DNA of 64,000 nt from Escherichia coli (GTDB lineage Bacteria; Pseudomonadota; Gammaproteobacteria; Enterobacterales; Enterobacteriaceae). Below are positions 15,001 to 18,000 of the stretch, in pieces. Position numbers: made by a program. The stretch lies in assembly GCF_002854065.1 (NCBI RefSeq), contig NZ_CP024147.1. One strand, given 5' to 3'. Positions within the stretch are counted from its first letter, which is position 1, and each line of letters begins with the position of its first letter.

Positions 15001-18000
15001 ACCAGCTCAGGCGTGCAATGCTCCCCCTCATTCAACACACGCACCACTTTCCCCTGGCGTAAAAATATCAACGTATCACCATAATTGACGGCAAAATTCA
15101 GATCATGCAACACCACGACGACTGTACGCCCGTGATGACGCGTTAAATCATGTAATAACTCAAGAATTTCAACCTGATAACGTAAATCAAGCCAGGTTGT
15201 GGGTTCATCCAGTAGGATATAAGGCGTCTTTTGCGCCAACACCATCGCAATCCAGCAACGCTGGCGCTGCCCACCAGAGAGTTTTTCAACAGGTAAATGA
15301 GCAAACTCCTGCGTACCGGTTAATTTCAGGGCCTCTTCTACCGCCTGCTCGTCGGCGTCGCTCCATTGACGTATGAAATTTTGCCAGGGAAAACGCCCAC
15401 GCGACACCAGTTCATAAACGGTTAAGCCCTCCGGCAATAATGGCGACTGCGGCAAGATCCCAAGTCTACGGGATAACGCTTTCGTTGGTTGCTCGTGAAT
15501 CGCTTTACCATCCAGCAATATTGAGCCGCCCATGGGTTGCAAGATACGTGCAATGGTGCTGAGCAACGTCGACTTTCCACAGCCGTTTGCCCCAACCAGA
15601 ACGGTCATTTTTTCTGTGGGAACGGAGAAAGAAACACCATCAACAATGATTTTCTTGTGATACCCGGCAGAAACATTGTCGAGGATCAGCCCCTGCCCTT
15701 TTGCGTTATGTGCCACGTGTACGCCAACTTAATCAAAGACAAACAAAAATAAAACTCATTCTCTTTTGAGAGTTTGACGCCACAAAATGTAGTAGTCAAG
15801 AAGTTAAAAGCCATACAAAAACAAGGTAAATAACAGGTGAAATATTTTTAAAGATAAAAATAAAATCATTAAATATTAATAAATTACCATCAATTGAATT
15901 GCATTAACCTCTCAAAAAAACACATGTAGCAATTTTTTGTTATTTCTCATTTACTACTACATTACCGCATGGTTGAATGATTCTCAATTACATATCCGAT
16001 GGTGAAATAACAAACGGATAGTGCTTAGTGAGCAACAAGAAACAATTTTCACTCACGACAATCCGTGAGTTTTTGGGATAACAGACTAAATGGCTAAGTT
16101 CACACCTTCATTCTCAGGAATCAAAGGTCGGGCGCTCTTTTCACTGCTCTTTGCAGCACCAATGATTCATGCAACCGACACTGCAACGACCAAAGATGGC
16201 GAAACAATCACTGTTACAGCGGATGCAAATACCGCAACTGAGGCGACCGATGGTTATCAACCTCTGAGCACTTCCACGGCGACATTAACCGATATGCCGA
16301 TGCTGGATATCCCGCAGGTGGTCAATACGGTTAGCGATCAGGTTCTGGAAAATCAGAATGCAACGACGCTGGATGAAGCGCTTTATAACGTCAGTAACGT
16401 GGTACAGACCAATACATTAGGCGGAACTCAGGACGCCTTTGTACGTCGTGGGTTTGGTGCTAACCGGGATGGCTCCATCATGACCAACGGTCTGCGAACC
16501 GTACTTCCTCGCAGTTTCAACGCCGCCACAGAACGTGTGGAAGTGCTAAAAGGTCCGGCCTCCACGCTGTATGGCATTCTCGATCCTGGTGGATTGATTA
16601 ACGTCGTGACCAAGCGCCCGGAAAAAACATTCCATGGTTCTGTCTCAGCCACGTCCTCCAGTTTTGGCGGAGGCACTGGGCAACTTGATATCACAGGTCC
16701 CATTGAAGGCACTCAGCTGACATACCGCCTGACGGGGGAAGTGCAGGATGAAGATTACTGGCGAAACTTCGGTAAAGAGCGCAGTACATTTGTTGCCCCG
16801 TCACTCACCTGGTTTGGTGATAATGCAACAGTAACCATGCTCTATTCCCATCGGGACTATAAAACTCCGTTCGATCGTGGAACGATTTTCGACCTTACGA
16901 CGAAACAGCCCGTAAACGTTGATCGAAAAATACGTTTTGACGAACCGTTTAATATTACAGATGGTCAGTCCGATCTGGCGCAACTCAACGCAGAATATCA
17001 TCTCAATAGCCAGTGGACAGCGCGCTTTGATTACAGCTACAGCCAGGATAAATACAGCGACAATCAGGCTCGCGTTACCGCGTATGATGCAACGACAGGA
17101 ACGCTGACACGGCGTGTTGATGCAACTCAGGGATCTACCCAGCGTATGCATTCTACTCGTGCGGATCTGCAAGGGAATGTTGATATTGCTGGGTTCTATA
17201 ATGAGATTCTGGGTGGGGTGTCATATGAATATTATGATCTTCTGCGCACAGATATGATTCGCTGTAAAAACGCTAAAGATTTCAATATCTACAACCCCGT
17301 TTATGGCAATACCAGCAAATGCACAACGGTTTCGGCGTCGGACAGTGATCAGACGATCAAACAGGAGAGCTACTCAGCTTATGCACAGGATGCGCTCTAT
17401 CTGACCGATAACTGGATTGCCGTCGCCGGGATCCGCTATCAGTATTACACGCAGTATGCGGGTAAAGGCCGCCCTTTTAATGTCAATACTGACAGCCGCG
17501 ATGAACAATGGACCCCCAAACTGGGGTTAGTCTACAAACTGACGCCATCGGTATCCTTATTTGCTAATTATTCGCAAACATTTATGCCGCAATCGTCAAT
17601 TGCCAGCTACATCGGAGATCTTCCACCGGAATCATCTAATGCTTACGAAGTCGGGGCAAAATTCGAGTTGTTCGATGGTATAACCGCAGATATTGCGCTG
17701 TTTGATATCCATAAACGTAACGTGTTGTATACCGAAAGTATTGGTGATGAAACCATCGCCAAAACGGCAGGCCGCGTTCGTTCAAGAGGGGTAGAAGTCG
17801 ACCTTGCGGGAGCATTAACTGAAAACATTAATATCATTGCCAGCTACGGCTATACCGATGCTAAGGTTCTGGAAGATCCTGATTATGCAGGGAAACCATT
17901 GCCGAATGTTCCTCGTCATACCGGTTCGCTATTCCTGACCTATGACATTCATAACATGCCAGGCAATAACACACTGACGTTTGGCGGTGGTGGACATGGC

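What the first reader, a model, noticed from the sequence alone, without database searches (positions are those of the whole stretch)
15866..15995. Candidate Fur boxes in the divergent promoter of the iron-uptake cluster
The 370-bp AT-rich region between the ATPase operon and the receptor gene contains taaaatcattaaatattaataaattacc (15866-15895) and tgaatgattctcaattac (15974-15992). Both resemble the AT-rich NATWAT-repeat Fur consensus and are placed to repress both divergent promoters.
Basis: inference. Interest (0 to 1): 0.3.

Follow-up and report, generated by a model that had tools for sequence, protein, structure and literature searches.

The report
Fur operators of the fit promoters

Summary
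The window is E. coli chromosome. The "iron-uptake cluster" is the published fit system (fitR-E-D-C-B divergent from fitA), inserted between ygiN and parE.

Both quoted strings exist. The first is at 15861-15888, not 15866-15895. The second is at 15974-15991.

- **Box 2 (15973-15991, TTGAATGATTCTCAATTAC) is real.** Its PWM score is modest (10.7 bits). The full 19-mer is identical in 34 of 39 fit loci from 12+ genera, and its core in all 39. It overlaps the inferred extended -10 and start site of fitA. It lies under published Fur ChIP-exo peaks in all three fit-positive strains tested.
- **Box 1 is not supported.**
  - It scores 10.1/8.9 bits, no better than shuffled 30%-GC DNA.
  - It sits in the unalignable centre, 62 bp from either -35.
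  - The strain with identical sequence there (Sakai) has no ChIP peak.
AAAAATAAAACTCATTCTC at 15745-15763 scores 15.7 bits (rank 2 of 64 kb). It is conserved in 39/39 loci, lies under a ChIP-exo peak in all three strains, and covers the inferred fitB start site.

Fur repression of fit was published in 2008 and 2023, so the finding is ordinary.

By-products are two invariant 12-mers embedding both -35 hexamers (candidate FitR operators, with length-locked spacing) and a covarying two-hairpin fitA leader.

The parts
15745..15763 (.). Fur box I (AAAAATAAAACTCATTCTC), the operator of the fitB-fitR operon promoter.
   Evidence: PWM score 15.7 bits, rank 2 in the window; shuffle P = 0.018. The core AAAYAANN[ACT]TCATT is present in 39/39 fit loci. 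Fur ChIP-exo peaks map to window 15755-15770 in strains 042, CFT073 and Sakai, under iron-replete conditions only. The box begins 7 nt after the inferred -10.
15973..15991 (.).
   Evidence: PWM score 10.7 bits, rank 13, with a 6-bp-phased second register at 15979-15997 (7.2 bits). The exact 19-mer occurs in 34/39 loci and TGnTTGAATGATT in 39/39. ChIP-exo peaks map to window 15968-15980 in all three fit-positive strains. Its first six bases are the inferred -10 hexamer.
15861..15888 (.).
   Evidence: Scores are 10.1 and 8.9 bits, at chance level for this composition. This is the most variable stretch among E. coli strains and is unalignable between genera. Only strain 042 has a ChIP-exo peak here (15863-15875), and 042 carries ACCCTT instead of ATCATT. 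Sakai, identical to the window here, has no peak.
15788..15799 (-). Invariant 12-mer TTGACTACTACA (minus strand). It holds the -35 hexamer TTGACT (15799-15794) of PfitB plus ACTACA. Candidate FitR operator.
   Evidence: Present in 39/39 loci. Only two matches occur in the whole window, against 0.29 expected. The spacer after it is variable, and a CAnnnT hexamer lies 17 bp downstream in all loci.
15771..15776 (-). Inferred -10 hexamer of PfitB (CAAACT on the minus strand). The inferred start site is near 15764.
   Evidence: It lies 17 bp from TTGACT in every locus. The hexamers seen are CAAACT, CATGAT, CAAAAT, CAAGAT, CAATAT, CATTAT and CAGAAT, always with A at position 2 and T at position 6. 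This is an inference; no start-site data are available.
15950..15961 (+). Invariant 12-mer TTTACTACTACA. It holds the -35 hexamer TTTACT of PfitA plus ACTACA. Candidate FitR operator.
   Evidence: Present in 39/39 loci. The distance to TTGAAT is exactly 23 bp in 39/39 loci.
15970..15978 (+). Inferred extended -10 of PfitA (TGgTTGAAT). The inferred start site is near 15985.
   Evidence: TG-n-TTGAAT is invariant in all 40 sequences, 17 bp after TTTACT. This is an inference; no start-site data are available.
14907..15716 (-). fitB, the ABC transporter ATPase and first gene of the fitB-C-D-E-R operon.
   Evidence: Matches NCBIfam FecE/FepC-type ATPase models. Annotated as such in RefSeq. Gene naming follows PMC2593036.
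16090..18231 (+). fitA, the TonB-dependent siderophore receptor.
   Evidence: Matches TIGR01783 at 370 bits. Annotated as fitA in strain Sakai.
11039..11926 (-). fitR, the RpiR/MurR-family auto-repressor and second regulator of the same control region.
   Evidence: Matches NCBIfam MurR/RpiR models. PMC2593036 reports FitR EMSA on the 347-bp intergenic fragment and repression independent of Fur. An HTH_6+SIS gene is present in the Erwinia, Kosakonia and Enterobacter clusters.
15989..16070 (+). fitA leader RNA with two conserved hairpins: HP1 at 15989-16023 and HP2 at 16051-16070, followed by a U-run.
   Evidence: MFE z-score -2.05. In HP1, 3 of 5 pairs carry compensatory changes. In HP2, CFT073 carries a compensatory pair, 23 different stem sequences are seen, and mean dG is -6.4 against -0.8 kcal/mol in shuffles. 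No Rfam family matches.

Best explanation
The 373-bp region is the bidirectional control region of the E. coli fit iron-uptake island. It carries two core promoters pointing outwards, each with its own Fur operator laid over the start-site region.

- **PfitA:** -35 TTTACT (15950-15955), 17-bp spacer ending in TG, -10 TTGAAT (15973-15978). Fur box III (15973-15991) covers it from the -10 to about +7.
- **PfitB:** minus strand, -35 TTGACT (15799-15794), -10 CAAACT (15776-15771). Fur box I (15763-15745) covers it from about +1 to +19.

When iron is sufficient, Fe2+-Fur dimers occupy both boxes and block RNA polymerase binding or escape. When iron is scarce, Fur leaves and both transcription units are derepressed.

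FitR, encoded at the end of the fitB operon, represses the same two promoters independently. It probably acts through the invariant ACTACTACA motif that overlaps both -35 hexamers.

Shown by others: Fur- and iron-dependent expression, and Fur occupancy at about 20-bp resolution. Shown here: sequence match, conservation and fixed spacing. Inferred: exact start sites, the promoter hexamers and the FitR site.
For: **Identity of the locus**
- 100% identity to E. coli chromosomes carrying qseC-mdaB-ygiN-[RpiR regulator, binding protein, two permeases, ATPase / TonB-dependent receptor]-parE.
- The island is present in 1870 of 5426 complete genomes. The genes are annotated fitA/C/D/E in strain Sakai.

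**Published regulation**
- fitA is induced 23-fold in a fur mutant and about 3-fold by iron deprivation. FitR acts independently of Fur. The exact Fur and FitR sites were stated to be unmapped (PMC2593036).
- All fit genes are in the 'accessory Fur regulon' of strains 042, Sakai and CFT073. Dataset 4 values for fitA are 8.1/3.5/3.9 and for fitB 5.9/1.8/3.3 (PMC10164565 Dataset 4).

**Published Fur ChIP-exo peaks, iron-replete only**
- 042: 3539587-99, 3539695-707, 3539800-12.
- CFT073: 3607758-70, 3607968-80.
- Sakai: 3917060-72, 3917271-83.
- All three strains have an indel-free 373-bp intergenic region, so these map to window 15755-15770, 15863-15875 (042 only) and 15968-15980.
- The Sakai offset between record versions .1 and .2 (127-128 bp) was checked against the yqjH peak.

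**Match between peaks and boxes**
- The best PWM sites lie 7-10 bp from these peak centres.
- That is within the -25 to +16 bp scatter seen at control promoters.

**Conservation in 39 loci from 12+ genera** (Escherichia, Enterobacter, Lelliottia, Citrobacter, Kosakonia, Kluyvera, Yokenella, Erwinia, Pantoea, Affinibrenneria and others)
- Box I core is present in 39/39. The box III 19-mer is present in 34/39 and its core in 39/39.
- Mean column identity is 46% in the 16-sequence alignment of the region, and the central spacer averages 43% pairwise identity.

**Promoter geometry**
- The -35 to -10 distance is fixed at 17 bp on both sides.
- The TG of the extended -10 is invariant.
- The fitB -10 varies only at positions that a -10 hexamer tolerates.
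Against: - No transcription start-site data were available, so the -35/-10 assignments and the 'box covers +1' geometry are inferred.
- Box III scores only 10.7 bits, which is chance level for this composition. Its near-total invariance exceeds what a degenerate Fur site needs, so part of that conservation must come from the overlapping -10 or another constraint.
- ChIP-exo peak positions are imprecise, with a -25 to +16 bp scatter. Many secondary peaks in the K-12 data set have no motif under them, so a peak alone does not prove a discrete box.
- The two strongest other PWM hits in the window are ttdR/ttdA (17.0 bits) and upstream of ribB (15.3 bits). Neither has a reported peak, which shows the PWM is not specific on its own.
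Confidence: 0.8

Rival explanations
1. One reading: the two quoted boxes (15861-15888 and 15974-15991) are the Fur operators, and together they repress both divergent promoters.
For: - Box 2 is well supported.
- Strain 042 has a ChIP-exo peak at window 15863-15875, inside box 1.
- Most genera carry some PWM hit of 9-19 bits somewhere in the central AT-rich spacer, e.g. 19.6 bits in Enterobacter chuandaensis and 15.4 bits in Lelliottia. A shifting auxiliary central site is therefore conceivable.
Against: - Box 1 scores 10.1/8.9 bits, which 47% of shuffles reach.
- It lies in the least conserved stretch within E. coli and is unalignable between genera.
- It is 62 bp from either -35.
- Sakai, identical to the window at box 1, and CFT073 both lack the middle peak. 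Strain 042, which has the peak, carries a mutated core (ATCATT to ACCCTT) that drops the 15855-15873 register below 7 bits.
- The model ignores the 15.7-bit box at 15745-15763, which carries a peak in all three strains.
Confidence: 0.12
2. Box 2 / site III is conserved because it is the -10, discriminator and start region of PfitA, possibly together with a FitR or other factor site, and is not itself a discrete Fur operator. Under this reading Fur nucleates at box I and the ChIP signal near 15974 reflects spreading or looping.
For: - The modest PWM score (10.7 bits) is at chance level for 30%-GC DNA.
- Invariance of 19-25 nt across genera is more than known Fur boxes show.
- Motif-less secondary ChIP-exo peaks 100-280 bp from a primary site are common in the K-12 data.
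Against: - The 13 invariant bases downstream of the -10 hexamer (GATTCTCAATTAC) are not needed by RNA polymerase. They contain the ATTCTC core found in the training-set Fur sites of fhuA, ryhB and feoA.
- Read in the direction of transcription, sites I and III share GAATGAnTnTnAnTT, 12/19 identical positions.
- The peak near 15974 is called independently in three strains, with a fixed 210-213 bp distance from the site I peak.
- fitA responds to fur deletion more strongly than fitB does.
Confidence: 0.08
3. The matches are chance AT-rich sequence, and iron regulation of fit is indirect (for example through RyhB or another regulator).
For:
- Equally good or better PWM hits elsewhere in the window are not bound by Fur.
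Against: - Fur ChIP-exo peaks occur in the intergenic region in all three fit-positive strains, under iron-replete conditions only.
- fitA is derepressed 23-fold in a fur mutant.
- Boxes I and III are invariant across 39 loci.
Confidence: 0.02

Closest known systems
The fit system of E. coli itself (Ouyang & Isaacson 2006, Infect Immun 74:6949; 2008, PMC2593036) and its Fur ChIP-exo peaks (Gao et al. 2023, PMC10164565)
   Same: It is the same locus, the same bidirectional promoter fragment and the same two repressors (Fur and FitR). The published peaks coincide with boxes I and III.
   Different: The papers do not name the operator sequences; the 2008 paper explicitly lists them as future work. 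The 2023 paper gives only 13-bp peak coordinates in a supplementary table. This analysis adds the base-level boxes, the inferred promoters and the cross-genus conservation.
Fur-controlled divergent enterobactin promoters of E. coli K-12 (fepA-fes, fepDGC-entS, fepB-entC)
   Same: These are also bidirectional iron-uptake control regions in which Fur boxes overlap the core promoter elements of both transcription units. The fepD-entS and entC boxes were recovered with the same PWM.
   Different: In fepD-entS, one overlapping cluster of boxes in 110 bp serves both promoters. Here two separate boxes lie about 228 bp apart, each downstream of or over its own -10. A second, dedicated repressor (FitR) shares the region.
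fhuA promoter Fur box (ferrichrome receptor)
   Same: It is a TonB-dependent hydroxamate-type receptor gene repressed through a box with the ATAATCATTCTC core. FitA's best full-length equivalog-model hits include FhuA.
   Different: FitA scores far below the FhuA cut-off (230 against 803 bits), so it is not FhuA. fhuA has no divergent partner operon and no RpiR-type co-repressor.
MurR/RpiR/HexR-family repressors with operators in divergent intergenic regions
   Same: FitR has the HTH_6+SIS architecture. It auto-represses from a divergent control region and binds the intergenic fragment in EMSA. From memory, not tested here: the TGTAGT half of the invariant motif resembles the HexR half-site TGTAAT.
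   Different: Known operators of this family are compact palindromes. Here the two copies are 162 bp apart in inverted orientation, and no compact palindrome was found. FitR binding to the 12-mers is untested.

Membership tests
Fur operator (Fur box) of the E. coli Fur regulon | Sequence match to the 19-bp Fur consensus or PWM within the range of validated sites | tested here: met
   For boxes I and III. Box I scores 15.7 bits and 13/19. Box III scores 10.7 bits and 12/19. Training sites range from 8.0 to 21.8 bits. Box III is at the low end and is not above the composition-matched chance level.
   Scores are 10.1 and 8.9 bits, with 12/19 and 10/19 consensus matches. 47% of shuffles of the region reach 10.1 bits.
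Fur operator (Fur box) of the E. coli Fur regulon | Overlap with core promoter elements (-35, -10 or +1) of the repressed gene | tested here: met
   Met for boxes I and III relative to promoters inferred from fixed 17-bp spacing and invariant hexamers in 40 sequences. Start sites are not measured. Not met for box 1, which is 62 bp from either -35.
Fur operator (Fur box) of the E. coli Fur regulon | In vivo Fur occupancy that depends on iron | tested here: met
   Taken from published data mapped onto the window. 'R'-only ChIP-exo peaks lie at window 15755-15770 and 15968-15980 in strains 042, CFT073 and Sakai. For box 1 there is a peak in 042 only.
Fur operator (Fur box) of the E. coli Fur regulon | Fur- and iron-dependent expression of the adjacent genes | tested here: met
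   From the literature. fitA is up 23-fold in a fur mutant, and the reporter is about 3-fold up in low iron (PMC2593036). Dataset 4 values are 1.8-8.1 in three strains (PMC10164565 Dataset 4).
Fur operator (Fur box) of the E. coli Fur regulon | Base-resolution protection by purified Fur (footprint) and loss of regulation on mutating the box | not testable with these tools
   No such experiment was found. PMC2593036 lists it as future work.
Operator of an RpiR/MurR-family repressor (FitR) - for the invariant 12-mers | Bound by the cognate regulator | not testable with these tools
   FitR shifts the whole 347-bp fragment. The site within that fragment is unknown.
Operator of an RpiR/MurR-family repressor (FitR) - for the invariant 12-mers | Inverted-repeat symmetry and co-occurrence with the regulator gene | tested here: inconclusive
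   The two copies are mutually inverted (14 nt, 93% complementary, 150 nt apart) and are present in 39/39 loci. fitR is present in all three clusters examined in full. There is no compact palindrome and no fitR-less cluster to serve as a control. The -35 function alone explains 6 of the 12 bases.

The most novel reading that the evidence does not exclude
Beyond the ordinary Fur boxes, the fit control region may be a rigid two-repressor switch. The invariant TTKACTACTACA motifs embed both -35 hexamers. They are kept 161-163 or 183-185 bp apart, two length classes differing by two helical turns, although the DNA between them is only about 43% identical across genera. They could be FitR operators bridged by an oligomeric FitR through a DNA loop that encloses the AT-rich centre.

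Separately, the fitA leader carries an undescribed, covarying two-hairpin RNA. Its second hairpin, with a U-run 19 nt before the AUG, could act as an attenuator or define a short Fur-controlled leader transcript.
Probability: 0.25. Interest if true: 0.4.

Novelty: already known. Interest (0 to 1): 0.15.

Why it matters
The finding matters little as a discovery. Fur repression of fit has been known since 2006-2008, and Fur occupancy of this region was published in 2023.

The practical gains are:
- A base-level assignment of the two operators and both core promoters of an iron-uptake island present in about a third of complete E. coli genomes here. PMC2593036 explicitly left these unmapped.
- A worked example of how a Fur PWM behaves in AT-rich DNA. 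A modest-scoring box is real.

The by-products (candidate FitR operators with length-locked spacing, and a conserved leader RNA) are testable leads of moderate interest.

Tried and rejected
- **In-window positive control.** I expected the Fur-regulated yqjH/nfeF promoter near 54.7 kb. The window departs from the reference strain after tRNA-Ile (about 53.8 kb) and does not contain yqjH. I used yqjH and exbB from strains 042 and CFT073 instead.
- **The 2006 fit paper (PMC1698097).** It is not held, so whether it names a Fur box could not be checked.
- **Generic sigma-70 scan.** It gave only one non-conserved candidate (GTGAAA-18-TAAAAT, 15837-15866), no more than shuffles give. I set it aside in favour of the promoters defined by cross-genus invariance.
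- **Inverted repeat I1** (TTTTGAGAG/CTCTCAAAA). It is not conserved in other genera, so I treat it as chance.
- **Rfam search of the region.** It returned only a sub-threshold plant miRNA hit, which is noise.
- **RyhB pairing with the conserved GGGCAAUGA / GUGAGCAA leader element.** RNAduplex without accessibility terms gave whole-length duplexes, and several genera did not clearly beat shuffles. The test was uninformative and no claim is made.
- **Literature search by locus tags and fitA.** It returned noise.
- **The 042-only middle ChIP peak.** No 042-specific substitution improves a Fur match there. It remains unexplained and may reflect spreading at higher occupancy or peak-calling differences.
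Full report
**What the locus is**

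The window is E. coli chromosome. The stretch 14900-18300 is 100% identical to strain CUWW06 and is present in 1870 of 5426 complete E. coli genomes. The gene order is qseB-qseC-mdaB-ygiN, then an island, then parE-yqiA-cpdA-nudF-tolC.

The island encodes, on the minus strand:
- an RpiR/MurR regulator (11039-11926);
- a siderophore-binding protein;
- two FecCD permeases;
- an ATPase (14907-15716).

On the plus strand it encodes a 713-aa TonB-dependent siderophore receptor (16090-18231). RefSeq annotates these genes as fitE/fitD/fitC/fitA in O157:H7 Sakai.

This is the fit system of Ouyang and Isaacson. Their 2008 paper (PMC2593036) reports the following:
- The 347-bp fitA-fitB intergenic fragment is a bidirectional promoter.
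- FitR binds the fragment in EMSA.

**Checking the observation**

Both quoted strings occur once. The first is at 15861-15888, 5-7 bp from the stated coordinates. The second is at 15974-15991. The intergenic region is 373 bp at 30% G+C.

To score the boxes I built a palindromic 19-bp Fur PWM. I started from the textbook consensus and iterated on 14 K-12 Fur-regulated promoter regions fetched for the purpose. It converged on 35 sites that include the classical fhuA, fepD-entS, entC, sodA, ryhB and sufA boxes, with consensus GATAATGATAATCATTATC and 15.2 bits.

Scanning the window gave:

| Site | Coordinates | Score (bits) | Rank |
|---|---|---|---|
| Box 1, best register | 15855-15873 | 10.1 | 16 |
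| Box 1, second register | 15869-15887 | 8.9 | 23 |
| Unlisted site (AAAAATAAAACTCATTCTC) | 15745-15763 | 15.7 | 2 |

The unlisted site is flanked by 6-bp-phased weaker registers, as in known Fur arrays.

Against 5,000 dinucleotide-preserving shuffles of the intergenic region, P(max >= 15.7) is 0.018. P(max >= 10.7) is 0.37 and P(max >= 10.1) is 0.47.

The PWM is also not specific. The other two hits above 14 bits are the ttdR/ttdA intergenic region (44552, 17.0 bits) and the ribB/FMN-riboswitch promoter (29519, 15.3 bits). Neither has a Fur ChIP-exo peak in any strain table I read.

**Published in vivo binding**

Gao et al. 2023 (PMC10164565) ran Fur ChIP-exo and fur-mutant RNA-seq in nine E. 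coli strains, three of which carry fit. Their Dataset 4 places all six fit genes in the 'accessory Fur regulon' of strains 042, Sakai and CFT073. The Dataset 4 values for fitA are 8.1, 3.5 and 3.9, and for fitB 5.9, 1.8 and 3.3.

Their Dataset 2 lists iron-replete-only peaks in the fit intergenic region:

| Strain | Peaks (record coordinates) |
|---|---|
| 042 | 3539587-99, 3539695-707, 3539800-12 |
| CFT073 | 3607758-70, 3607968-80 |
| Sakai | 3917060-72, 3917271-83 |

The intergenic region is 373 bp without indels in all four sequences. The peaks therefore map to window 15755-15770 (all three strains), 15863-15875 (042 only) and 15968-15980 (all three strains).

The Sakai coordinates refer to NC_002695.1. 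I validated the 127-128 bp offset to the held version .2 with the yqjH peak, which lies 69 bp from the yqjH start codon in both 042 and CFT073.

At control promoters the peak centre lies -25 to +16 bp from the best box, and many secondary K-12 peaks have no motif at all. A peak therefore supports a nearby box but does not prove one. Here the box centres are 7-10 bp from the peak centres.

**Comparative evidence**

A scan of one genome per species returned 39 fit loci from Escherichia, Enterobacter, Lelliottia, Silvania, Huaxiibacter, Citrobacter, Kosakonia, Kluyvera, Yokenella, Erwinia, Pantoea and Affinibrenneria. FitA identity runs from 71% to 99%, and all loci have the divergent ATPase gene.

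Mean column identity is 46% in a 16-sequence alignment of the intergenic region, and four blocks stand out:
- Box I core AAAYAANN[ACT]TCATT: 39/39.
- TGTAGTAGTCAA (15788-15799): 39/39.
- TTTACTACTACA (15950-15961): 39/39.
- TGnTTGAATGATT: 39/39, with the whole 19-mer of box 2 identical in 34/39.

Strain comparison also weakens box 1. Sakai is identical to the window there and has no middle peak. Strain 042 has the peak but carries ACCCTT in place of ATCATT, which removes the 10.1-bit register.

**Promoter architecture (inferred)**

- **fitA side.** TTTACT is followed by exactly 17 bp, the last three being TG-n, and then TTGAAT, in all 40 sequences. That is a -35 plus extended -10 promoter with a start near 15985. 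Box III begins at the first base of the -10 and runs to about +7.
- **fitB side.** TTGACT (minus strand, 15799-15794) is followed by a 17-bp spacer that varies in its last 11 nt. A hexamer follows that is always CAnnnT (CAAACT, CATGAT, CAAAAT, CAAGAT, CAATAT, CATTAT or CAGAAT). This is the pattern expected of a -10. Box I starts 5-8 nt after it, covering about +1 to +19.
- **Shared core.** Read in the direction of transcription, the two boxes share GAATGAnTnTnAnTT.

This gives a simple mechanism. One Fur operator sits over the start region of each outward-facing promoter and is occupied when iron is replete. No start-site data were available, so this geometry is an inference from conservation and spacing.

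- Right: the cluster is iron- and Fur-controlled from this region, and box 2 is an operator over the receptor promoter.
- Wrong or unsupported: box 1 as the second operator. It is central, 62 bp from either -35, non-conserved and at chance score. Only the one strain whose sequence matches it worst has a peak there.
- Missed: the stronger box at 15745-15763, which serves the ATPase operon.

**Beyond the Fur boxes**

The six bases ACTACA that follow each -35 hexamer are as invariant as the hexamers themselves, which RNA polymerase does not require. The two 12-mers are the only matches in the 64-kb window, against 0.29 expected. They are mutually inverted.

Their start-to-start distance falls in two narrow classes, 161-163 bp (20 loci) and 183-185 bp (19 loci). 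Meanwhile the DNA between them averages 43% identity, and the flanking segments vary by tens of bases.

The RpiR-type gene is present in the full clusters of Erwinia, Kosakonia and Enterobacter. These motifs are the obvious candidates for the unmapped FitR operators, and the length lock hints at a phase- or loop-dependent arrangement. None of this was tested directly. The two length classes follow phylogeny, so they may reflect a single 21-bp indel.

The fitA leader (about 15985-16089) folds into two hairpins (z = -2.05).
- HP1 has compensatory changes at 3 of 5 pairs.
- HP2 (16051-16070, followed by a U-run, 19 nt before the AUG) has a compensatory pair in CFT073.
- HP2 also has 23 different stem sequences among 38 leaders, at a fixed position. 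Its mean dG is -6.4 kcal/mol against -0.8 in shuffles.
- No Rfam family matches.

**Verdict**

This is an ordinary, already-published Fur-regulated promoter region. Confidence that boxes I and III are the functional Fur operators is about 0.8. Confidence that box 1 is a primary operator is about 0.1. Interest is low. The candidate FitR motifs and the leader RNA are the only parts that go beyond the literature.

Noticed in passing
window 15985-16089 (HP1 15989-16023; HP2 16051-16070 plus U-run): The fitA 5' leader carries two hairpins conserved across 12+ genera, with compensatory base changes. HP2 ends 19-25 nt before the AUG and looks like a weak intrinsic terminator in E. coli. A conserved single-stranded GGGCAAUGA (GAGCAACAA in E. 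coli) lies between the hairpins. No Rfam family matches.
   Followed up: partly
window 15788-15799 and 15950-15961: The invariant 12-mers TGTAGTAGTCAA / TTTACTACTACA occur in 39/39 loci and embed both -35 hexamers. Their spacing is locked to 161-163 or 183-185 bp although the intervening DNA is only about 43% identical. They are candidate FitR operators, possibly with looping.
   Followed up: partly
window 17572-17585 (inside fitA): A published Fur ChIP-exo peak lies inside the fitA coding region at the same relative position in strains 042, CFT073 and Sakai, 1604-1605 bp after the box III peak. The best nearby PWM match is only 7.1 bits (17557-17575). Sakai has a further peak at about 16580-16592 with no motif.
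   Followed up: partly
window 44552-44570 and 29519-29537: The strongest and third-strongest Fur-PWM matches in the window lie in the ttdR/ttdA intergenic region (17.0 bits) and just upstream of the FMN riboswitch of ribB (15.3 bits). Neither has a Fur ChIP-exo peak in the K-12, 042, CFT073 or Sakai tables I read.
   Followed up: no
window ~53900-64000: Downstream of tRNA-Ile (ileX) the window stops matching strain CUWW06, so yqjH/nfeF is absent from it. From their translations (my reading, not searched), the ORFs here look like an island or prophage remnant: a 973-aa Antigen-43-like autotransporter (59063-61984), a YeeP-like GTPase, and RadC-like, antirestriction-like and DUF932-like ORFs.
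   Followed up: no
L050 (Affinibrenneria salicis), 106-118 bp upstream of fitA: This distant fit locus has a 260-nt leader with an extra pair of overlapping, classical-looking Fur boxes (GAAATTGATAAAAATAATGATAACGAATGCC; 13.7 and 14.1 bits) close to the fitA start, in addition to the conserved TTGAATGATT element.
   Followed up: no
PMC10164565 Dataset 2, Sakai sheet, peaks P119-P120: Two peaks assigned in the table to parE and yqiA as 'intergenic' actually fall inside fitA once coordinates are mapped. The table's target assignment is unreliable at this locus.
   Followed up: yes
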